In this document: piece by piece, positions 2,916-46,346 of the stretch
Numbering within the stretch: the stretch's first letter is position 1
Layout: each line of letters starts with the position of its first letter
Assembly: GCA_001795735.1 (NCBI GenBank)
Contig: MGKQ01000014.1
Span: 5,625 to 58,691 of the forward strand
Length of the DNA: 53,067 nucleotides
Reading direction: 5' to 3'
DNA from: Candidatus Yanofskybacteria bacterium RIFCSPLOWO2_02_FULL_41_13
GTDB taxonomy: Bacteria; Patescibacteriota; Minisyncoccia; 2-02-FULL-40-12; GWA2-44-9
The notes under the pieces: generated by a model
Database searches by the model: none
Told to the model about the DNA's origin: nothing
What the model saw: the letters and a program-made list of their open reading frames with translations, nothing else
Position numbers and translations under genes: made by a program

Positions 2916-3200
2916 ATGGACAGATTAGTAGCACAACTTGGTCGGAGTAAAATTATACTCGTATTTATTGTCGGGATCGGCTTTATTTTGGGCTATTTAA
3001 ATTATTCCGGACAAGAAAAACCCGTTATTTTAAGCCAAGAAGAGCCGACAAAAAAAGATGGCTTAGACTTTTTTAAAGACTTCAGCCTAGATCTGAGTAT
3101 ATTTAATAATGAAACTTACAAAAAGCTTGAAATCTTCGGAGAGAATCCTGTTTACCCCGATTTTACCGGAGAAAGAAAAAATCCTTTCGCACCGTTTTAA
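2916..3200 (+). CDS. Small membrane protein in the PilP position
   Basis: N-terminal TM, ends GERKNPFAPF (RNPF-like motif seen in PilP-type proteins); synteny. Confidence 0.6.
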   Translation: MDRLVAQLGRSKIILVFIVGIGFILGYLNYSGQEKPVILSQEEPTKKDGLDFFKDFSLDLSIFNNETYKKLEIFGENPVYPDFTGERKNPFAPF

Positions 3201-3211
3201 ATAAAATCGTC

Positions 3212-4957
3212 ATGCCGATTAAAATTCCAACAACTTTAGTCGAAGAGCTGATAAAACTGGGGCTTTTATCTAAGAGGGATGTTAAGTCCTATGAAGACTT
3301 GGCCAAGAAAGAAGATAAAGAGCTTGGCCAGATTTTAATTGAAAAAGATGTCGTCTCGGCCAGTGACCTTTTGGAAATTAAGTCAAGACTCTATAGGTTG
3401 CCGATAGTAAAACTGGAAGAAATTAAGCTTGATAGCGAAGCATTGAAAGAAATAGCTGAAGATGTGGTAAATTTTTACAAGATGGCCCCGTTTGCCAAGG
3501 AGGGGGATATCCTGAAGGTGGGCGTTATAAATCCCGAAGACATTGATGCCCTGGAAGCCCTCAAGTTTATAGCCTCCGACAAGGGGTTAAAAATTGACAA
3601 ATATATTATTGATTACCGTGATTTTGAGGGCATATTAAAAAATTACCGTTCCTTAACTGCTGAAGTCGGCAAAGCGCTTGAATCTCTTTCCGAAGAAGCT
3701 GAAAAAGAGGTTATCACCCAGAAGAAAATAGAAGAAATCAGCGCCGAAGGAGCGGTTACCCGTATTGTAGCCTCGATTGTTAAGTATGCAGTTGAGTCTC
3801 GCGCTTCCGATATTCACATTGAAGCTTTCGAAGAAAAAGTAAATGTCCGGTTCAGAATTGATGGGGTTTTAATTATCGCCCTAACCCTGCCCAAGAACGT
3901 CCATTCGGCCGTACTAACCAGAATTAAGGTTCTTTCAAACCTAAAAATCGACGAAACCAGACTGGCTCAAGACGGAAGATTCTCGACAATGCTCAATAAG
4001 CGGAGGATAGATTTTAGAGTTTCGACTTTTCCGACTAAAAACGGCGAGAAAGTCGTTATGCGTATTTTAGATCCACTTACAAACAAAATTGACCTTCCGG
4101 ATTTAGGAATTGACGGCAGATCTCTGGAGGTTCTTGAGCGGGCAATGACTAAACCGTTCGGAAGCATACTGATTACCGGTCCTACCGGTTCGGGTAAGTC
4201 TACTACTTTAGCCGGAATGCTTAAGCGTTTAAACAACGAGGAGGTGAATATCGTAACCCTTGAAGATCCGATTGAGTATTTTGTCGAAGGCGTTAATCAA
4301 TCTCAAATCCACGAAGAGATCGGATATACTTTTGCCTCCGGCTTGCGCCACATTCTAAGACAGGACCCGGATATTATCATGGTCGGAGAGATCAGAGATA
4401 AAGAAACGGCGGCCTTGGCTACTCAAGCGGCGTTAACCGGCCATATCGTCTTATCAACTCTCCACACGAATGATGCCATGGGTGTTGTTCCTCGTTTGAT
4501 TGATATGGGAGTTGAGAAGTACCTTATACCACCGACTCTTAATGTTGCGGCCGCTCAGCGCTTGCTGAGACGTCTATGTCCTGATTGTAAAATAAAAGCA
4601 AAAGCCAATGTTGCCGAAGAGGGGATCATCAATAAAGCTATTCTGGGTATGCCGGAAAAGTATCAAAAAGAGCTCTTGTCTCAGAGTGGTTATCAAATCC
4701 ACAAACCTAACATTGAAAACCCGTGCAAAAAATGTTCAGGAAAGGCTTTTAAGGGCCGAATGGGTATATTTGAAATGCTTGAGATGACCGATGAATTTGA
4801 GAAAATTATACTGGCTGACTTTTCCGAATCGGCAACGAGAGAGGAAGCTCGACGCCAAGGCATGATAACAATGTTTCAGGACGGAATATTAAAAGTGCTG
4901 AGGGGTGTTGTCTCTATTGATGAGTTACTTGAGGTAGCTGAAGCAGATAAGAAATAG
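3212..4957 (+). CDS. pilB: Type IV pilus extension ATPase PilB/GspE
   Basis: ASDIHIE, GPTGSGKSTT, RQDPDIIMVGEIRD, GHIVLSTLHTN, tetracysteine motif. Confidence 0.95.
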   Translation: MPIKIPTTLVEELIKLGLLSKRDVKSYEDLAKKEDKELGQILIEKDVVSASDLLEIKSRLYRLPIVKLEEIKLDSEALKEIAEDVVNFYKMAPFAKEGDILKVGVINPEDIDALEALKFIASDKGLKIDKYIIDYRDFEGILKNYRSLTAEVGKALESLSEEAEKEVITQKKIEEISAEGAVTRIVASIVKYAVESRASDIHIEAFEEKVNVRFRIDGVLIIALTLPKNVHSAVLTRIKVLSNLKIDETRLAQDGRFSTMLNKRRIDFRVSTFPTKNGEKVVMRILDPLTNKIDLPDLGIDGRSLEVLERAMTKPFGSILITGPTGSGKSTTLAGMLKRLNNEEVNIVTLEDPIEYFVEGVNQSQIHEEIGYTFASGLRHILRQDPDIIMVGEIRDKETAALATQAALTGHIVLSTLHTNDAMGVVPRLIDMGVEKYLIPPTLNVAAAQRLLRRLCPDCKIKAKANVAEEGIINKAILGMPEKYQKELLSQSGYQIHKPNIENPCKKCSGKAFKGRMGIFEMLEMTDEFEKIILADFSESATREEARRQGMITMFQDGILKVLRGVVSIDELLEVAEADKK

Positions 4958-18905: not shown

Positions 18906-18940
18906 AAATGGAGCCCCGACATTACGTCGGGGCTCCATTT
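18906..18940. repeat. REP-like hairpin, 15-bp perfect arms
   Basis: AAATGGAGCCCCGAC-ATTAC-GTCGGGGCTCCATTT. Confidence 0.85.
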
Positions 18941-38482: not shown

Positions 38483-38530
38483 GAAAAAGGGACCTGACCC
38501 CTTTTATTTTTCGATAAAAAATGTTGACTG

Positions 38531-38612
38531 CGGAGGGTGCAGGACTTGAACCTGCAAGGGATTGCTCCCGCTGGTTTTCGAAACCAGTGCCATACCATTA
38601 GGCGAACCCTCC
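38531..38612 (-). tRNA. tRNA-Ser (CGA)
   Basis: GGAGGGT/ACCCTCC, G73, anticodon arm CTGGT-TTCGAAA-ACCAG, long variable arm. Confidence 0.95.
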
Positions 38613-38662
38613 CTATGACTAAACTTAATTCAAATTAAAAATATCATTACCCCCACATAAAG

Positions 38663-38686
38663 AAAAGGCCTCTCCGAAGAGAGGCT
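38663..38686 (-). terminator. Terminator after tRNA-Arg
   Basis: Minus strand GCCTCTC-TTCG-GAGAGGC then CTTTT. Confidence 0.7.
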
Positions 38687-38763
38687 TGGCGAACCAGACA
38701 GGATTTGAACCTGTGACCCTCGGCTTAGAAGGCCGATGCTCTATCCAGCTGAGCTACTGGTTC
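38687..38763 (-). tRNA. tRNA-Arg (TCT)
   Basis: GAACCAG/CTGGTTC, loop CTTCTAA, encoded CCA. Confidence 0.95.
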
Positions 38764-38775
38764 GCAAAAGAGAAA

Positions 38776-38847
38776 TGGGCCGCGCAGGGATCGAACCTGC
38801 GACTCTCCGGTTAAAAGCCGGGTGCTCTACCGCTGAGCTAGCGACCC
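38776..38847 (-). tRNA. tRNA-Lys (TTT)
   Basis: GGGTCGC/GCGGCCC, loop CTTTTAA. Confidence 0.95.
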
Positions 38848-38859
38848 ATGAGAGAGAAA

Positions 38860-38944
38860 TGCCGGAGATCGGACTCGAACCGATACGCCCTTTCGGACAG
38901 GGAGTTTTAAGCCCCCTTTGTCTGCCATTCCAATACACCCCGGC
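38860..38944 (-). tRNA. tRNA-Leu (TAA), atypical acceptor-D linker
   Basis: GCCGGGG/CTCCGGC, loop CTTAAAA, long variable arm. Confidence 0.88.
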
Positions 38945-38953
38945 ACAAGAAAG

Positions 38954-39247
38954 CTACTTACGACCGCCAAACCGTACGTTTATCTGCCACTTATCGTGAT
39001 AGATCACGTTCAGTCGAGGATCGTTTTCTTTCAGAGAGATAACTCGGGCAATCACACCCATGGAACGAAGTGCGCTCAAAGTTCTGTGACCATACTTCTG
39101 CCACCCAGCCTCGGTAAAGAAGAAGCGGGCACTCTTGTTTTCGAGGCGCTTCCACTTCCTGTTTTGCACCGGCAAGCCGGCATCACATAGAGCTTCCCAC
39201 AAATCAAGACGGTTCATCCAGTCGCTCGATTCGATACGCCTATACAT
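38954..39247 (-). CDS. 97-aa hypothetical protein inside the tRNA array
   Basis: ATG at 39247 preceded by GGAGGAGGAG; the longer ORF-track start lies inside a tRNA. Confidence 0.7.
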   Translation of the reverse strand: MYRRIESSDWMNRLDLWEALCDAGLPVQNRKWKRLENKSARFFFTEAGWQKYGHRTLSALRSMGVIARVISLKENDPRLNVIYHDKWQINVRFGGRK

Positions 39248-39297
39248 CTCCTCCTCCCAAAGATTAAAAGAACAATTACACCCTTCTAAAAGAAGGG

Positions 39298-39374
39298 TGG
39301 TGGGCCCAGCAGGGGTCGAACCTGCAACCAACCGGTTATGAGCCGGACGCTCTGCGCTATTGAGCTATGGGCCC
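39298..39374 (-). tRNA. tRNA with CAT anticodon, most likely Ile2 (lysidine type)
   Basis: GGGCCCA/TGGGCCC, loop CTCATAA, encoded CCA, no initiator features; D-loop lacks GG. Confidence 0.85.
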
Positions 39375-41085: not shown

Positions 41086-41087
41086 AG

Positions 41088-41158
41088 TGGACCTACGGGG
41101 AGTCGAGCCCCGACTTCAACCATGCCATGGTCGCGTGATACCGTTTCACTATAGGCCC
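41088..41158 (-). tRNA. tRNA-Ala (GGC)
   Basis: G3:U70 pair, loop ATGGCAT; T-loop reads CTCGACT. Confidence 0.9.
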
Positions 41159-41184
41159 CTTTCTCTGTATTCTACGATACTCTG

Positions 41185-41256
41185 TGCCCTCGCCATGAGT
41201 CGAACATGGATCCAGACGCTAGGAGTGTCTTGTTCTATCCATTGAACTACGAGGGC
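41185..41256 (-). tRNA. tRNA-Arg (CCT)
   Basis: GCCCTCG/CGAGGGC, loop CTCCTAG, TTCGACT. Confidence 0.9.
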
Positions 41257-42745: not shown

Positions 42746-43180
42746 ATGGATAAAATCAAGATCAAAAGATTTGATAAAGAATTACCATTGCCGGAATATA
42801 AAACCGCCGGAGCGGCCGGTTTTGATTTATATGCCAGAGAGAAAACCACAATAAATCCAGGGGCGGTTGGTTATGTGCCATTAAATGTCGCCCTTGAAAC
42901 ACCTAGAGACCATTTTTTAATCTTGGCCGTCCGAAGCTCAACTCATAAACTCGGCTTAATGCCGGCCAATGGAATTGGGATAGGGGATTCTGATTTTCGG
43001 GGAGATGAAGATGAGTACAAGATAGTTTTGCTAAATTTCACAAAAAAATCTGTTACAGTAGAGCGTGGCTCCAGAATAGCCCAGGGATTATTTGTTAAAA
43101 TCACAAAAGCTAAGTGGCAAGAAGTGGATAAAATGAGTTCAAAAACCCGCGGTGGGTTTGGTTCAACGGGAAAAAAGTAA
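42746..43180 (+). CDS. dut: dUTP diphosphatase
   Basis: AAGFDL, RSS, GIGDSDFRG, RIAQG, RGGFGSTG. Confidence 0.95.
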   Translation: MDKIKIKRFDKELPLPEYKTAGAAGFDLYAREKTTINPGAVGYVPLNVALETPRDHFLILAVRSSTHKLGLMPANGIGIGDSDFRGDEDEYKIVLLNFTKKSVTVERGSRIAQGLFVKITKAKWQEVDKMSSKTRGGFGSTGKK

Positions 43181-43183
43181 ATT

Positions 43184-43254
43184 CGGGCCGGAGTATGCCG
43201 GTAGTACGCGCCCTTCGGGTGGGTGAAGACCGTGTTCGATTCACGGCGGCCCGA
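43184..43254 (+). tRNA. tRNA-Pro (CGG)
   Basis: CGGGCCG/CGGCCCG, loop TTCGGGT, TTCGATT. Confidence 0.92.
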
Positions 43255-43346
43255 CTATAAGAGATGAGCCGAGTTTTTCATTAATAACAAGGGCCCGTAG
43301 TAAAGTGGCATTACGCGGCATTCGTCCCGATTTATAAAATTTTGAA

Positions 43347-43601
43347 ATGTTTTATTGCTATATCCTTCAATCTAAACTAAATGGCGCATATTATATAGGT
43401 AGCTGTCAGAACATTGATGTGAGGGTTAAACAACATAATAAGTTTTTAGTCCCAGCTACGAAAAGATATGCTCCGTAGGTTGTTGTTTATAGACAGGAAT
43501 TTAATACCCTTAAAGATGCCGGAGAAAAAGAACTAAAAATTAAATCTTGGAAGAAAAGAAGCGCCATTGAAAAATTAATTAAAACATTTCAAAATTTTTA
43601 A
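43347..43601 (+). pseudogene. Small GIY-YIG nuclease with one in-frame TAG
   Basis: Manual: MFYCYILQS...YYIGSCQNIDVRVKQHN...TKRYAP*VVVYRQEF...EKELKIKSWKKRSAIEKLI; TAG 43476-43478 where this family usually has Trp (PW). Confidence 0.88.
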
Positions 43602-43629
43602 TAAATCGTGGATCCGCGATAACTCTGGT

Positions 43630-43700
43630 GGGCCCGTAGTTAAGTGGTATAACGCGACATTCGCATTGTCGAGGCGGGAGTTCGATTCTCCCCGGGTCCA
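43630..43700 (+). tRNA. Intact tRNA-Ala (CGC) nested in the insert
   Basis: GGGCCCG/CGGGTCC with G3:U70, CGACA-TTCGCAT-TGTCG, GGGAG-TTCGATT-CTCCC. Confidence 0.95.
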
Positions 43701-43744
43701 CATGGGCCCACCAGAGTTATCGGGACATTGCTGAGACGCGGTTT

Positions 43745-43786
43745 TCCAGACTTTATCAAAAATCCGCGATAGCATAGCTATCGGGA
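43745..43786. repeat. 42-bp palindromic insert in the T-loop of the split tRNA
   Basis: TCCAGACTTTATCAAAAA-TCCGCGATAGC-ATA-GCTATCGGGA; same right-hand module as the large insert. Confidence 0.85.
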
Positions 43787-43820
43787 CGATTACCGCCGGG
43801 TCCACTGATTTAAATTTAAT

Positions 43821-46346
43821 TTACTTAATATCCTCCGTAGTCAGACCAAAGACCATTCCTTTATTAATACTTCCGTCTAGGATTTTCTTGGCAATGGCGC
43901 TTTCGACTTTATCTCGAATAACTCGCTCCATCGGACGGGCTCCGAACTGGGGATCAAAGCCGGCTTTAGCCACGTAGTCGGCAATATCTTGAGTCGGTTT
44001 AAAGAAGTAGCCCTGATCTTTTAGCCTGGCGGCCAGAGAGTCAAGAAGAATTATTGTAATTTTACCAACCTGATCCTGCGATAGGGGATGGAACGTCACT
44101 ATCTCATCGAAACGGTTAAGCAGTTCGGGTTTAAAATGATGCTCTTTAATCAATACATCTATCAGCTTCTCTTTCTCGATAGATGGATCTAGTCCTTGCT
44201 TTATTAAGTCGCGGATAAAATCAGCTCCGGCATTAGAAGTAGCAATAATTATATTCTGTTCAAAATTTATTCTTCTACCAAAAGCGTCAGTCAGGTGGCC
44301 CTCATCAAAAACCTGCAAAAATATATTAAGGACATTCTTATCCGCTTTTTCTATTTCATCCAGAAGAATCAAAGAAAATGGGTTGTCTCGAACTTGAGTC
44401 ACAAACTGTCCCGGTTCGTTACTTCTAGCCGAACCGATGAATCTATCGAGCGATTCCTGGTTTTGGTATTCCGACATATCAAACCTTAGCATCCTGTCAG
44501 CGGAACCAAAATAGATTTTAGCGAGTATCTTTGCCGTCAGGGTTTTCCCGACTCCCGTCGGACCGATGAAAAGAAAAACTCCGGCCGGCTTGCCACGCTT
44601 GGCAAAGCCTGCTCTTAAGCGCCTCATCGTTGAGGACACAACCTCAACCGCCCGATCTTGGCCGATTATTTCTTTATGCATGAACTCCTCCAAACGAATC
44701 AGTTTATCTTTCTCTTCTCCGATTACCGGCCCCAGCGGTATGCCTGTTTTTTGACTTATAACCTCGTGTACGTCTTTTTTGGTCACGATCCGGTCTTTTC
44801 GGTTCACGACATGAGAGATAACTTCAGTTAAAAGATCAAATGCCTTTTCGGGGAATGGCGCCGTTCTTATAAACTTATCCGCTCCGGTGACAATTTCCTT
44901 TATCGCTCCATAGGTAACGAGTATACTTTGCTTTGACTCAAATGCCGGCACTGCCTCCTCTAGAATTTTGATCGTTTGTACAGCGCTTGGTTCGACAATG
45001 TTAATTCTTTCAAAAACATTTGTCAGCTCAGATCTCTGCTCTATGAATTTATGAAAATTTATAGGATTGGTGATCGCTATCACCTGAATTTTGCTTGATC
45101 TTAGATAGGGAACCAGTACTTCTGAAACATCAATCCTCCCCATCCCACCGATTTCGCCTATAAAATTATGGAGATCTTTAAGAACCAATATGACGTTGCC
45201 TGCTTTTACAGCTTCGTTAAATGTGGCTATCAAAATATTCTGAACATCGGTAATTTCTTTTGACGCACTTGCAACCAGCGATAAATTAAGATCAAAAACC
45301 TTTTTGTAATTAAGCTGTGGCAAAGCCCGGCCCTTGGCAATCATTTCCGCAAAATCAAGAATTATATTTTCCCGACCTACACCCTCTTCTCCGACAAGAA
45401 GAACGTTATTTTCTCCCGAGCGGGCAAGAATCTGTTCCATCTGATCCATCTCTTTCTTTCTTCTTATCAGACGCATTTTAGGTCGGGCAAGTTCCATCTT
45501 GTCAGTCAAATTTACTGCAAAAGCAGTAAGGTGACGGGCATAACCATAAATCCAATCCCGGCCGATCGGCGGCTGACGTAAAAGATTCTCCAAGCTCCAG
45601 AACTTCCTGTAGTTTCTCCAGAATGTCCAGATATGCTCGTACCATTCGGCAAGCTCCTCCATATCTTCTTTATTTAAATCCTGGTTTAAAATAAACTGTT
45701 TGAACTCATTGCTATAGTCAAATAACGAAGCCATGATATCGAGAACTGATATTTTCCGGCTTCCGTGCTTATCGCGAATAGCCAGAGCGTCTTTCAGCAA
45801 CTCCAGAATTTCGGGGGTAATTTCCTGAGTTGTAAATAAAGAAAATTTGACAGAAAAAAGTTTCCGTCTGCCAAGATTCTCTTCTAGGTGCTTCTTAATT
45901 GAACCGAAGCTAGGAATAATTCTCATGAAAAGCTTTTCCATTATGCCATCTTCAATCAGGGCAGTTAGCAAAGTTTTTGTTGAAAGAGCTTTCTCTCCAA
46001 GTCCACGAGACAGCTCAAAAGCCCGGTCAAAAACTTTTGCCGCTTCATATTCAATCAAGTCTGCAATATTACTAGTGTTTTTGACTTTAGGGTATTTGAG
46101 ATAATAATTGCCGAATAACTCGAATATGGAGACGGCAATAGCAAAAGGTAAAACAATAAATGTCCAGCCGACATTTATGTAAATCTGGGTTTCGTAGGCC
46201 ATGTTAATAACCGCGAAGCCAATCGGCACGAGAGCGAGAACAAAAAGTAAAACACGGTAAAACTTTAAAATTCCGGCCGGAAAATAGCGGTAGAAAAGAA
46301 CAGCCTTGTAGATCTCCGAATTTCTTAAGTTGAATGTCATATACAA
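43821..46346 (-). CDS. ClpA/ClpB-family ATPase with N-terminal TMs and degenerate first ATPase domain
   Basis: NBD2 intact (GPTGVGKT, LLDEIEKA, PELLNRFD, GARP); NBD1 reads GEEGVGRE and LVLKDLH. Confidence 0.9.
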   Translation of the reverse strand: MYMTFNLRNSEIYKAVLFYRYFPAGILKFYRVLLFVLALVPIGFAVINMAYETQIYINVGWTFIVLPFAIAVSIFELFGNYYLKYPKVKNTSNIADLIEYEAAKVFDRAFELSRGLGEKALSTKTLLTALIEDGIMEKLFMRIIPSFGSIKKHLEENLGRRKLFSVKFSLFTTQEITPEILELLKDALAIRDKHGSRKISVLDIMASLFDYSNEFKQFILNQDLNKEDMEELAEWYEHIWTFWRNYRKFWSLENLLRQPPIGRDWIYGYARHLTAFAVNLTDKMELARPKMRLIRRKKEMDQMEQILARSGENNVLLVGEEGVGRENIILDFAEMIAKGRALPQLNYKKVFDLNLSLVASASKEITDVQNILIATFNEAVKAGNVILVLKDLHNFIGEIGGMGRIDVSEVLVPYLRSSKIQVIAITNPINFHKFIEQRSELTNVFERINIVEPSAVQTIKILEEAVPAFESKQSILVTYGAIKEIVTGADKFIRTAPFPEKAFDLLTEVISHVVNRKDRIVTKKDVHEVISQKTGIPLGPVIGEEKDKLIRLEEFMHKEIIGQDRAVEVVSSTMRRLRAGFAKRGKPAGVFLFIGPTGVGKTLTAKILAKIYFGSADRMLRFDMSEYQNQESLDRFIGSARSNEPGQFVTQVRDNPFSLILLDEIEKADKNVLNIFLQVFDEGHLTDAFGRRINFEQNIIIATSNAGADFIRDLIKQGLDPSIEKEKLIDVLIKEHHFKPELLNRFDEIVTFHPLSQDQVGKITIILLDSLAARLKDQGYFFKPTQDIADYVAKAGFDPQFGARPMERVIRDKVESAIAKKILDGSINKGMVFGLTTEDIK

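What the first reader, a model, noticed from the sequence alone, without database searches (positions are those of the whole stretch)
43325..43786. Two-module TCCCGAT/ATCGGGA palindrome acting as a cargo carrier linked to GIY-YIG
Seen: insert 1 = [TCCCGATTTAT - GIY-YIG - ATAAATCGTGGA] + [TCCGCGATAACTCTGGT - tRNA - ACCAGAGTTATCGGGA]; insert 2 = [TCCAGACTTTAT..] + [TCCGCGATAGC-ATA-GCTATCGGGA]. Same ends, different loop contents; the module junction ATCGTGGATCCGCGAT is itself near-palindromic, allowing a cruciform switch. The hairpin at 18906-18940 (CCCCGAC/GTCGGGG) looks related. Known: REP sequences are mobilised by flanked RAYT HUH nucleases. Inference: a parallel system in which a small GIY-YIG nuclease is the REP-flanked enzyme.
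Basis: partly seen in the sequence, partly recalled or inferred. Interest (0 to 1): 0.8.

Follow-up and report, generated by a model that had tools for sequence, protein, structure and literature searches.

The report
tRNA-splitting nuclease element with spare tRNA
A small selfish DNA element made of two hairpins, one holding a now-broken GIY-YIG nuclease gene and the other a spare alanine tRNA gene, has split a bacterial alanine tRNA gene; relatives across CPR bacteria do the same, a "break the gene but bring a replacement" strategy I could not find described for bacteria.

Summary
Removing 43325-43725 (anticodon loop, between nt 35|36) and 43745-43786 (T-loop, 55|56) restores a perfect 72-nt cloverleaf. 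Insert 1 is two tandem hairpin units. One encloses an 84-codon SLX1/UPF0213-like GIY-YIG gene, dead here through TAG at the invariant Trp44. The other encloses an intact second tRNA-Ala(CGC). Insert 2 is a 42-nt ORF-less derivative.

The architecture recurs in 21 other delimited elements from CPR genomes, at the same site (TTYG^CAW):
- Elements in tRNA-Ala(CGC) carry Ala(CGC), and those in Ala(UGC) carry Ala(UGC).
- Elements at protein-gene sites carry no tRNA but are followed by an intact copy of the broken gene start.
- Cargo tRNAs are always intact, while outer tRNAs are often decayed.
- The nuclease is under strong purifying selection, and the hairpin stems covary almost only through Watson-Crick pairs.

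The repeat is not genome-wide like REP sequences, and no HUH enzyme is involved. The best reading is a nuclease-driven selfish element that rescues the gene it breaks. It is analogous to yeast WHO elements and undescribed in the literature searched. The mechanism (homing versus hairpin transposition) is unresolved. The 18906-18940 hairpin looks like a terminator.

The parts
43291..43324 (+). Outer tRNA-Ala(CGC), fragment 1 (acceptor 5' strand, D arm, anticodon stem 5' strand, loop up to the second anticodon base G35)
   Evidence: nhmmer tRNA-Ala HMM positions 1-34, E = 2e-6. Joins with the other two fragments into an ARAGORN tRNA-Ala(cgc) carrying G3:U70.
43325..43725 (+). Insert 1: complete two-hairpin element (401 nt), inserted between anticodon nt 35|36 with no target-site duplication
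   Evidence: Same boundaries and same site in 11 other tRNA-Ala(CGC) loci.
43325..43612 (+). Hairpin unit H1: TCCCGAT...ATCG-T-GGA, a stem of about 30 bp with a 1-nt bulge. The nuclease ORF lies in the loop, and its start codon and last codons lie inside the stem.
   Evidence: Inverted repeats 43336-54/43580-98 (19 nt, 100%) and 43328-39/43597-608. Fold.
43347..43601 (+). GIY-YIG nuclease pseudogene (84 codons) with in-frame TAG at 43476-43478 replacing the invariant Trp44
   Evidence: Pfam PF01541, E = 2.7e-15. W44 is invariant in 38 homologs. TAG is an ordinary stop in this window. The TAG is identical in 3 assemblies.
43613..43725 (+). Hairpin unit H2: TCC-G-CGATAACTCTGGTGGGCCC...GGGCCCACCAGAGTTATCGGGA, with the cargo tRNA in the loop
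   Evidence: Inverted repeat 43617-35/43704-22 (19 nt, 100%). Covariation of this stem across 20 distinct elements.
43630..43701 (+). Cargo tRNA-Ala(CGC), intact (the presumed functional copy)
   Evidence: ARAGORN. Rfam tRNA 67.5 bits. 59/72 identical to the outer tRNA, with compensatory changes in the D and T stems and a G-U to A-U change in the anticodon stem.
43726..43744 (+). Outer tRNA-Ala fragment 2 (third anticodon base to T-loop nt 55)
43745..43786 (+). Insert 2: 42-nt ORF-less derivative in the T-loop (55|56). It consists of an H1 remnant (43745-43762) plus a complete small H2 hairpin (43763-43786).
   Evidence: Homologous T-loop inserts occur at the same position in L012 and L041, and a different hairpin sits at about that position in L014.
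43787..43805 (+). Outer tRNA-Ala fragment 3 (T-loop nt 56 to the discriminator base)
   Evidence: Direct repeat D2, 84% identical to the 3' end of the cargo tRNA.

Best explanation
The region is a decaying copy of a selfish DNA element that broke a tRNA-Ala(CGC) gene and brought its own replacement.

Anatomy (shown). The element consists of two tandem DNA hairpin units with conserved feet: TCCCGAT..ATCG-N-GGA | TCC-N-CGAT..ATCGGGA. The first hairpin encloses a minimal (84 aa) SLX1/UPF0213-type GIY-YIG nuclease gene. The second encloses a complete tRNA-Ala(CGC) gene.

Insertion (shown). The element sits precisely, without target duplication, between the 2nd and 3rd anticodon bases of a normal tRNA-Pro/tRNA-Ala locus. 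Its cargo is the same isoacceptor as the gene it split. A 42-nt ORF-less derivative sits in the T-loop of the broken gene.

How it works (inferred). The broken outer gene is a relic and the cargo tRNA is the working gene, matured by the usual tRNA-processing enzymes. In active copies the nuclease makes a break at TTYG^CAW-type sites in uninterrupted target genes. The break is repaired from an element-bearing copy, with the flanking target fragments supplying homology. The element and its rescue copy are thereby copied in (homing with rescue). Repeated rounds give nested and decayed relics. The hairpins, which are kept as perfect Watson-Crick DNA palindromes, are probably the structure the SLX1-like nuclease recognises. 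They also sequester its start codon.

State in this genome. The nuclease gene has been inactivated by a nonsense mutation, so the element is now a fixed fossil whose cargo tRNA presumably supplies tRNA-Ala(CGC).
For: - Excising both inserts restores a perfect cloverleaf.
- Uninterrupted versions of the same tRNA are the norm in CPR metagenomes: more than 110 of about 120 loci. They also occur in the same CCA-enzyme/tRNA-Pro(CGG)/tRNA-Ala synteny, in L167 and L130.
- The same split point (HMM 34|35) is seen in at least 17 loci upstream of the ORF and at least 14 downstream of the cargo tRNA.
- Twenty-two delimited elements include 12 in Ala(CGC) with Ala(CGC) cargo, 9 in Ala(UGC) with Ala(UGC) cargo and none discordant. 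The 4 at non-tRNA sites carry no tRNA.
- At the protein-gene sites a disrupted 5' fragment starting exactly at the ATG is followed by an intact gene copy: atpG in L020, with synonymous recoding at the site, rpmE in L044, and a Zn-ribbon gene in L021/L023.
- The cargo tRNA is intact in all elements. Outer tRNAs are truncated or unfoldable in L001, L012, L018, L025, L026, L031 and L036.
- Nested three-level copies occur in L024 and L034.
- The L001 layout (no right end) is what repair using the cargo's 3' half as homology would give.
- For the nuclease, dN/dS is 0.05-0.19 with saturated dS, and the catalytic Y5, Y16, R26, H30 and E62 are conserved.
- The predicted structure is confident (pLDDT 91.7) and is closest to UPF0213 and Slx1.
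- 40 of 51 distinct homolog loci have a same-strand tRNA starting within -25..+60 nt of the stop codon.
- In the H2 stem 98% of cells are paired and 11 of 16 pairs show double changes. The covariation score is 0.698 against 0.146 in shuffles (0/500), and only 2 of 320 cells are G-U.
- Yeast WHO elements are a documented precedent for homing that replaces part of the target gene (PMC7282813).
Against: - No cleavage or mobility data exist.
- An 84-aa catalytic domain without a DNA-binding domain is not a classical homing endonuclease.
- The cargo tRNA shares the identical 11-nt core (CATTCGCATTG) with the target, so immunity of the rescue copy is unexplained. Re-invasion may simply occur, as the nested copies suggest.
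- Classical homing needs no hairpins, yet these are the most conserved feature.
- ORF-less copies sit at sites with no flanking homology to the parent site (D-loop, around nt 40, T-loop 53|54 and 55|56). This requires a true insertion activity in addition to homing.
- In L021/L023 the short flanks are more conserved than the element interior, which is not what one recent co-conversion predicts.
- All related loci were retrieved through the nuclease, so the census of hairpin-only copies is incomplete.
Confidence: 0.5

Rival explanations
1. A hairpin-guided single-strand DNA transposon. The GIY-YIG nuclease cuts at the feet of the two hairpins on folded single-stranded DNA and the unit is excised and re-inserted, analogous to REP/RAYT or IS200/IS605 peel-and-paste. 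The tRNA cargo has been selected because insertions kill tRNA genes.
For: - The element boundaries coincide exactly with the hairpin feet, there is no target-site duplication, and insertion follows a short TTYG-like motif.
- ORF-less minis occur at several different tRNA loop positions without flanking homology.
- Most tRNA targets are loops of stem-loops.
- The palindromes are kept as near-pure Watson-Crick pairs, and the element looks the same on both strands.
- The nuclease is nearest to structure-specific SLX1/UPF0213.
Against: - GIY-YIG enzymes hydrolyse DNA and are not known to form the covalent intermediate needed for strand transfer (established knowledge). A ligase or repair step would have to be supplied by the host.
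- The left-flank motif is not constant: TTCG, TTTG, ATTG, AAAG, CACC, GTTT.
- The copy number is very low, unlike REPs or IS200-derived MITEs.
- The protein-gene targets show no hairpin.
- The partial target duplications starting exactly at the ATG are better explained by repair from a donor.
Confidence: 0.25
2. The inserts are protein-dependent tRNA introns removed at the RNA level, as with the multiple non-canonical introns of Thermoproteales. On this reading the outer tRNA is functional, and the GIY-YIG protein or a host RNase cuts at the hairpin feet.
For: - Excision of both inserts gives a flawless cloverleaf in the window and in several other loci.
- The inserts sit in the D-loop, anticodon loop and T-loop, as archaeal introns do.
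- The whole transcript is predicted to fold with the outer acceptor stem closed.
- A GIY-YIG/TrmH fusion once prompted the suggestion of an RNA role for prokaryotic Slx1-like proteins (PMC1564403).
Against: - There is no bulge-helix-bulge: the junctions lie at the base of continuous helices.
- There is no group I intron signal, and insert 2 is only 42 nt.
- A same-isoacceptor intact copy accompanies every interrupted gene, which would be unnecessary if splicing worked.
- Many outer tRNAs are decayed or truncated while the cargo never is.
- The stems avoid G-U pairs, which is unlike selection on RNA structure.
- The same element occurs next to protein-gene fragments that cannot be rescued by tRNA splicing.
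Confidence: 0.07
3. A domesticated or host-beneficial cassette. The hairpins serve as processing or termination signals for the cargo tRNA, and the small GIY-YIG protein has a cellular DNA-repair or RNA role. The split tRNA is an incidental relic of an old rearrangement.
For: - The nuclease shows strong long-term purifying selection.
- UPF0213 proteins are widespread cellular proteins.
- The family is absent from viral contigs.
- The locus is fixed and identical in three assemblies.
Against: - The nuclease is a pseudogene here with no visible consequence.
- Insertions recur at the same nucleotide of two different tRNA-Ala isoacceptors and in unrelated protein genes.
- Nested re-invasions occur.
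- Empty sites are the majority state.
- The motif is confined to nuclease loci.
Confidence: 0.08

Closest known systems
WHO elements of Torulaspora/Lachancea yeasts (Coughlan et al. 2020, PMC7282813)
   Same: A nuclease gene homes into a housekeeping gene and keeps it functional by bringing a replacement for the part it disrupts. Target fragments flank the element and serve as homology. Repeated homing leaves arrays of relic fragments and nuclease pseudogenes.
   Different: WHO elements are eukaryotic and their nuclease is intein/LAGLIDADG-derived. They replace only the 3' end of a protein gene and have no hairpins. Here the host is bacterial, the nuclease is a minimal GIY-YIG, a whole tRNA gene (or a gene's 5' end) is supplied, the architecture is two hairpins, and ORF-less derivatives exist. 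This is an analogy, not homology.
Free-standing GIY-YIG homing endonucleases, e.g. phage T4 SegB in the tRNA gene cluster (PMC2330249)
   Same: A GIY-YIG nuclease gene is embedded among tRNA genes, and flanking tRNA DNA is preferentially inherited by break repair.
   Different: Seg proteins are more than 200 aa with DNA-binding modules, sit between genes, do not split their target, have no palindromic ends and are phage-borne. The present family is 80-90 aa, closest to SLX1/UPF0213 rather than I-TevI, and is absent from viral contigs.
REP/RAYT and IS200/IS605 single-strand hairpin elements (established knowledge)
   Same: Hairpin-forming ends, an enzyme gene flanked by the repeats, no target-site duplication, and non-autonomous miniature copies.
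   Different: The enzyme is GIY-YIG, not an HUH Y1 transposase. Copy number is very low and targeted to genes, not hundreds of intergenic copies. The layout is a symmetric two-hairpin design that reads the same on both strands. A rescue gene is carried.
Archaeal tRNA introns at non-canonical positions and their transposition in Thermoproteales (Fujishima et al. 2010, as summarised in PMC10714607)
   Same: Several short structured insertions at D-loop, anticodon-loop and T-loop positions of one tRNA gene, and related inserts in different tRNAs.
   Different: There is no bulge-helix-bulge motif, the host is bacterial, the interrupted genes decay and are always accompanied by an intact copy, and the inserts carry a nuclease gene and a tRNA gene.
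Group I introns with homing endonuclease genes in bacterial tRNA anticodon loops (PMC3984707)
   Same: Insertion in a tRNA anticodon loop, with an ORF for a GIY-YIG-type nuclease inside the insert.
   Different: No group I ribozyme core is detected. The 5' exon ends in G, not U, and the insert ends in A, not G. Function is kept by a spare gene rather than by self-splicing.
SLX1 / bacterial UPF0213 (YhbQ-like) structure-specific GIY-YIG nucleases
   Same: They are the best sequence and fold matches: 1zg2, 1ywl, and Slx1 7cq3 at rmsd 2.0 A over 70 columns with 37% identity. The catalytic residues are conserved.
   Different: Those proteins are treated as cellular repair factors or are uncharacterised. 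No link to palindromic mobile elements or tRNA genes was found in the literature searched.
Synthetic cleave-and-rescue / home-and-rescue gene drives (e.g. PMC7951863)
   Same: The logic is the same: a nuclease that destroys an essential gene is linked to a functional copy of that gene.
   Different: Those are engineered Cas9 systems in diploid eukaryotes with a deliberately recoded rescue. Here recoding is seen at one protein-gene site (L020) but not in the tRNA cargo.

Membership tests
GIY-YIG nuclease superfamily | GIY-YIG domain with catalytic Tyr, Tyr, Arg, His and Glu | tested here: met
   Pfam PF01541, E = 2.7e-15. Y5, Y16, R26 and E62 are invariant and H30 is nearly invariant. The predicted model has pLDDT 91.7. 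The window copy itself is truncated by TAG at W44.
SLX1/UPF0213 branch of GIY-YIG | Closest sequence and fold relatives are UPF0213 or Slx1 rather than I-TevI or UvrC | tested here: met
   The PDB profile search gives 1zg2 at 1.6e-7, 1ywl at 3.7e-6, Slx1 at 1.9e-5 and I-TevI at 6e-3. The Foldseek ranking is the same.
REP/RAYT system | HUH (Y1) RAYT transposase flanked by REPs | tested here: not met
   The enclosed ORF is GIY-YIG only. No other ORF lies within the element.
REP/RAYT system | Repeat present in many intergenic copies across the genome | tested here: not met
   The end motifs are at chance level outside this locus. The junction motif occurs once in the 53-kb window and at 0.45 per 100 kb in 663 kb of control CPR DNA.
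IS200/IS605-type single-strand transposon | Subterminal hairpins, no terminal duplication, insertion 3' of a fixed short target | tested here: inconclusive
   Hairpins at both ends and no duplication: met. The left flank is TTYG in most cases but not all. The Y1 transposase is absent.
Group I intron | Ribozyme core (P3-P9), U at the end of the 5' exon, terminal G | tested here: not met
   No Intron_gpI match at E <= 1 in 43100-43900. The exon ends in G and the insert ends in A. Insert 2 is 42 nt.
Archaeal-type BHB tRNA intron | Two 3-nt bulges separated by a 4-bp helix at the splice sites | tested here: not met
   Both junctions abut the first base pair of a continuous helix of at least 7 bp (TCCCGAT/ATCGGGA). 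Whether a splicing endonuclease is present in the genome cannot be tested from this window.
Homing endonuclease gene (free-standing) | Nuclease gene at a conserved site of a conserved gene, with empty sites in relatives | tested here: met
   The insertion point is the same in 21 tRNA loci. Uninterrupted alleles are common, including in the same synteny.
Homing endonuclease gene (free-standing) | Sequence-specific DNA-binding module and demonstrated cleavage of the empty site | not testable with these tools
   The protein is a bare 84-aa catalytic domain. Cleavage needs a biochemical assay.
Target-replacing homing elements (WHO-like logic) | Intact copy of the target next to the nuclease gene, flanked by relic target fragments; nested or arrayed relics | tested here: met
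   This is a functional analogy only, because the nuclease family differs.
Target-replacing homing elements (WHO-like logic) | The rescue copy is resistant to the element's nuclease | tested here: inconclusive
   The site is recoded synonymously in the intact atpG of L020 (AAGG.CC versus AAAG|CA). The tRNA cargo keeps the same 11-nt core as the target.

The most novel reading that the evidence does not exclude
This may be a previously undescribed class of bacterial mobile element. A minimal SLX1-like GIY-YIG nuclease would recognise the folded (hairpin or cruciform) ends of its own symmetric two-hairpin element. The element would insert scar-free into tRNA loops and gene starts, and persist as a natural home-and-rescue drive that keeps replacing tRNA genes in CPR bacteria. 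That would be the first GIY-YIG-based, structure-guided DNA transposon. It would also assign a function to part of the enigmatic UPF0213 family, whose genes sit next to tRNA genes in several phyla.
Probability: 0.35. Interest if true: 0.9.

Novelty: new variant of a known kind. Interest (0 to 1): 0.78.

Why it matters
If the reading is right, the finding matters in five ways.

1. Bacteria would host a natural counterpart of engineered "cleave/home-and-rescue" drives and of the yeast WHO elements. It is built from the smallest nuclease module known and uses a whole tRNA gene as the rescue.
2. It would explain why small UPF0213-type GIY-YIG genes lie immediately next to tRNA genes in CPR bacteria and apparently in Bacteroidota and Ignavibacteriota. 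It would give that family a testable substrate.
3. tRNA gene turnover, relic tRNA halves and "tRNA-in-tRNA" nesting in CPR genomes would be products of an ongoing genetic conflict. tRNA annotation in these genomes would need to take this into account.
4. The strictly Watson-Crick two-hairpin ends joined to an SLX1-like enzyme offer a simple system for studying structure-specific DNA cleavage.
5. If the ends are sufficient for scar-free insertion, the element could become a compact tool.

Tried and rejected
- Group I intron: an Rfam E-value scan of 43100-43900 found only the tRNA.
- BHB intron: the junction geometry is wrong.
- REP-like abundance: the motif counts are at chance level in the window and in control CPR DNA.
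- TAG recoding: TAG terminates 5 of 31 long ORFs in the window, so the ORF is a pseudogene.
- Assembly artefact: the locus is identical in three assemblies.
- Phage origin: one partial hit in IMG/VR and no PHROG match.
- Defence system: no PADLOC match.
- NCBIfam: only a sub-threshold group-I-intron-endonuclease hit over residues 5-32.
- ARAGORN intron mode produced chimeric calls joining the outer 5' half to the cargo 3' half, so it was abandoned.
- Automated reconstitution with up to two extra excisions gave some spurious solutions (L018, L027, L038) and missed the window's insert 2, because that insert's ends are imperfect repeats. Only clear cases are cited.
- A same-species empty site was sought with a metagenome pattern scan. 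It returned many uninterrupted tRNA-Ala(CGC) genes from other CPR lineages, including syntenic ones, but none from this species.
- Nine literature searches found no description of these elements.
It was rerun with P0001 as the query.
Full report
**1. What is in the sequence**

The two "inserts" are interruptions of a single gene. The three flanking pieces 43291-43324, 43726-43744 and 43787-43805 join into a 72-nt sequence that ARAGORN calls tRNA-Ala(CGC). It has a perfect cloverleaf and the G3:U70 alanine identity pair.

- Insert 1 (43325-43725, 401 nt) lies between the second and third anticodon bases (G35|C36).
- Insert 2 (43745-43786, 42 nt) lies in the T-loop between nt 55 and 56.
- Neither insert is flanked by a target-site duplication, and no base is missing.
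- The gene lies 35 nt after tRNA-Pro(CGG) (43184-43255). It is downstream of a CCA-adding enzyme and a dUTPase, and next to a ClpB-like gene on the other strand.

**2. Anatomy of the inserts**

Insert 1 is two tandem hairpin units.

- H1 (43325-43612) runs from TCCCGAT to ATCG-T-GGA. Its roughly 30-bp stem includes a perfect 19-nt inverted repeat (43336-54/43580-98). That repeat contains the start codon and the last codons of an 84-codon ORF lying in the loop.
- H2 (43613-43725) runs from TCC-G-CGAT to ATCGGGA. A perfect 19-nt repeat (43617-35/43704-22) encloses a complete second tRNA-Ala(CGC) (43630-43701).
- This cargo tRNA is 59/72 identical to the outer one, with compensatory differences in the D and T stems and a G-U to A-U change in the anticodon stem.
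- Each hairpin has a one-base bulge three pairs above its foot. The H1|H2 junction ATCGTGGA|TCCGCGAT is nearly palindromic.
- The whole element has the same layout when read on the other strand.

Insert 2 is a miniature of the same design. It has an H1 left-end remnant (TCCAGACTTTATCAAAAA) followed by a small complete H2 (TCCGCGATAGC-ATA-GCTATCGGGA). The whole locus folds far better than shuffles (z = -7.85).

**3. The ORF**

- It is a bare GIY-YIG catalytic domain (Pfam PF01541, E = 2.7e-15).
- It carries an in-frame TAG at 43476-78 where all 38 aligned homologs have Trp.
- TAG is an ordinary stop codon in this window (5 of 31 long ORFs).
- The TAG is present in three independent assemblies of this locus. 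The gene here is therefore a pseudogene, not an error.
- Intact homologs keep Y5, Y16, R26, H30 and E62 and evolve under strong purifying selection: dN/dS is 0.05-0.19 with saturated synonymous sites.
- By sequence profile and by predicted fold (pLDDT 91.7), the nearest solved structures are the UPF0213 proteins 1zg2 and 1ywl and the structure-specific nuclease Slx1. I-TevI and UvrC are more distant.
- The protein has no PHROG or PADLOC match and is essentially absent from viral contigs.

**4. Related loci**

The protein has close homologs only in CPR/Parcubacteria-type genomes. A pattern scan of one genome per species returned 79 loci.

- In 40 of 51 distinct ORF-bearing loci a same-strand tRNA starts within -25 to +60 nt of the stop codon. 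The tRNAs are Ala(CGC), Ala(UGC), Glu, Pro, Gln, Ile and Gly.
- A tRNA-Ala profile finds a 5' half (positions 1-34) ending about 22 nt before the ORF in at least 17 loci. It finds a 3' half (positions 35-72) just after the cargo tRNA in at least 14 loci. The split is always at the same nucleotide.
- I could delimit 22 complete elements, including the window. Those at tRNA sites are 375-411 nt and those at other sites are 297-331 nt.
- Twelve lie in tRNA-Ala(CGC) at TTCG^CAT and carry tRNA-Ala(CGC).
- Nine lie in tRNA-Ala(UGC) at TTTG^CAA or TTTG^CAT and carry tRNA-Ala(UGC), counting L026, whose outer gene is degenerate. None is discordant.
- Four lie at non-tRNA sites and carry no tRNA.

All 22 keep both hairpins. 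Across 20 distinct H2 stems, 98% of cells are paired and 11 of 16 pairs show changes on both sides. The covariation score is 0.698 against 0.146 in shuffles (0/500). Only 2 of 320 cells are G-U. That pattern is what a DNA palindrome required on both strands would show. It is unlike typical RNA-level selection.

**5. Which copy is functional**

- The cargo tRNA is intact in every element.
- The outer tRNA can be reconstituted in the window, L011, L022, L035, L042 and L047. After removing further small hairpin inserts, it can also be reconstituted in L014, L019 and L028.
- The outer tRNA is truncated or cannot fold in L001, L012, L018, L025, L026, L031 and L036.
- L024 and L034 show nesting: a cargo tRNA is itself split at the same position by another element carrying a further tRNA.

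At the protein-gene sites the same logic appears.

- In L020 a disrupted atpG fragment (MESPQNLKKRLKSVNNIGQITK|AME..) precedes an intact atpG whose site is synonymously recoded.
- In L044 a disrupted rpmE start (MKKDIHP|KYYP) precedes an intact rpmE.
- In L021 and L023, two paralogous Zn-ribbon genes of one genome carry the element with identical short flanks.
- In all three cases the duplicated segment begins exactly at the ATG.

An intact copy therefore always accompanies the broken one. That would be unnecessary if the inserts were spliced out.

**6. Empty sites and abundance**

A metagenome scan for the uninterrupted anticodon arm of the window's outer tRNA returned about 120 loci. More than 110 of them are ordinary uninterrupted tRNA-Ala(CGC) genes. 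L167 and L130 have the same CCA-enzyme/tRNA-Pro(CGG)/tRNA-Ala(CGC) synteny as the window.

The junction motif TCGNGGATCCNCGA occurs 62 times in 199 kb of non-redundant nuclease loci. It occurs 3 times in 663 kb of these control loci, where 1.1 are expected by chance. In the window neither the motifs nor any other GIY-YIG gene or tRNA-half relic occurs outside this locus. It is low-copy and gene-targeted, not REP-like.

**7. Mechanism**

*Shown:*
- precise insertion into a tRNA gene at a recurrent TTYG^CAW-type site;
- a same-isoacceptor replacement gene;
- conserved Watson-Crick hairpins;
- a selected nuclease gene in hairpin 1;
- ORF-less derivatives;
- decay of the interrupted copies;
- nesting.

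*Inferred:* the nuclease breaks uninterrupted targets. Repair from an element-bearing copy then copies in the element together with its rescue gene, with the relic target fragments acting as homology arms. The L001 layout (outer 5' half, nuclease, H2 left arm, tRNA, then unrelated DNA) is what repair using the cargo's 3' half as the right-hand homology would produce. This is the logic demonstrated for yeast WHO elements, which replace the 3' end of FBA1 at each homing event and leave fragment arrays (PMC7282813).

*Open problems:*
- An 84-aa domain has no obvious way to read a long site.
- The cargo shares the 11-nt core with the target.
- Homing does not need hairpins.
- ORF-less copies at D-loop, nt ~40 and T-loop positions require a genuine insertion activity.

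I rate that at about 0.25 and homing-with-rescue at about 0.5. RNA-level splicing and domestication are each below 0.1.

**8. Comparison with known systems**

The element fails the defining tests for REP/RAYT: there is no HUH enzyme and no genome-wide repeat. It also fails the tests for group I introns and for BHB introns (wrong junction geometry). It shares the hairpin ends and the lack of a duplication with IS200/IS605, but not the enzyme. It shares the GIY-YIG fold and a tRNA neighbourhood with T4 SegB (PMC2330249), but not the size, domain structure or layout.

Nine full-text searches found no description of such elements in CPR or other bacteria. The library does not cover subscription journals, so prior description cannot be excluded.

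**9. The 18906-18940 hairpin**

It lies 60 nt after the stop of a + strand ORF (18845) and about 95 nt before the next ORF. It has a 14-bp GC-rich stem followed by UUU (z = -7.0). It lacks the CGAT/ATCG core and the TCC/GGA feet. It is best read as an intrinsic terminator. A relation to the element is not supported, though some H1 units elsewhere (L016, L029) contain a CCCCGAC..GTCGGGG sub-hairpin.

**10. Verdict**

The window holds a fossil copy, with a nonsense-mutated nuclease, of a widespread and apparently undescribed family of CPR elements. These elements split tRNA genes and supply a spare. The REP/RAYT analogy is only partly apt. The closest functional analogue is a target-replacing homing element.

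Noticed in passing
window 18906-18940: A perfect 14-15 bp GC-rich hairpin flanked by an A-run and a T-run, 60 nt downstream of an ORF stop. It looks like a (bidirectional) intrinsic terminator rather than a relative of the element.
   Followed up: yes
L049 1201-1700 (also L037, L050, L052, L055, L061, L063): A Glu-type arrangement. The GIY-YIG ORF runs directly into an intact tRNA-Glu, and its stop codon TAG is the TCTAG of the D arm. A second tRNA-Glu downstream is split after ..CCATCGT by an ORF-less two-hairpin insert. Variant hairpin feet GTGCCGAT..ATCGGCAC occur upstream in some of these loci.
   Followed up: partly
L118 ~3060-3260 and L198 ~1650-1860 (metagenome loci): A tRNA-Ala(CGC) is nested inside the anticodon loop of another tRNA by a different, non-TCCCGAT hairpin, with no GIY-YIG gene. 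tRNA-in-tRNA nesting in CPR genomes is therefore not limited to this element family.
   Followed up: no
L021 and L023 (two contigs of one Nomurabacteria MAG), about 1150-1550: The 26 nt left and 40 nt right of the element are 100% identical between two paralogous Zn-ribbon genes. The element interior differs at about 20 sites, and the rest of the two genes is only about 65% identical. The flanks are more conserved than the element, which a single recent co-conversion does not explain.
   Followed up: partly
L057, L059, L071, L072, L074, L078, L082, L085, L087 (Bacteroidota, Ignavibacteriota, Chlorobi-type MAGs): More distant homologs of the same small GIY-YIG protein sit next to a tRNA-Ser gene, which lies just upstream in seven loci and just downstream in L085 and L087. 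The nuclease-tRNA linkage may therefore extend beyond CPR. Hairpins were not examined there.
   Followed up: no
window 43336-43354 / 43580-43598: The first codons (MFY) and last codons (KTFQNF) of the nuclease are part of the H1 stem. This explains the odd conservation of the C-terminal KTFQNF motif among homologs, and it would bury the start codon in a transcript.
   Followed up: partly
window 43821-46346 (- strand): The neighbouring ClpB/ClpC-like AAA+ gene (841 aa, TTG start as listed) begins with a hydrophobic segment of about 70 aa that looks membrane-spanning, which is unusual for Clp ATPases. The same gene flanks the element in the L001-L010 relatives.
   Followed up: no
window 38530-39374 and 41087-41256: Two clusters, of six and two tRNA genes on the minus strand, lie close upstream. 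None is interrupted and none has an adjacent relic half.
   Followed up: yes
L179 ~420-560: An ORF-less two-hairpin element (TCCCGATTTT..TCGTGGATCTTCGA..ATTATCGGGA) lies in a locus chosen only for its tRNA-Ala gene, flanked by CTGC|..|CATTG. It is an example of a solitary copy away from any nuclease gene.
   Followed up: no
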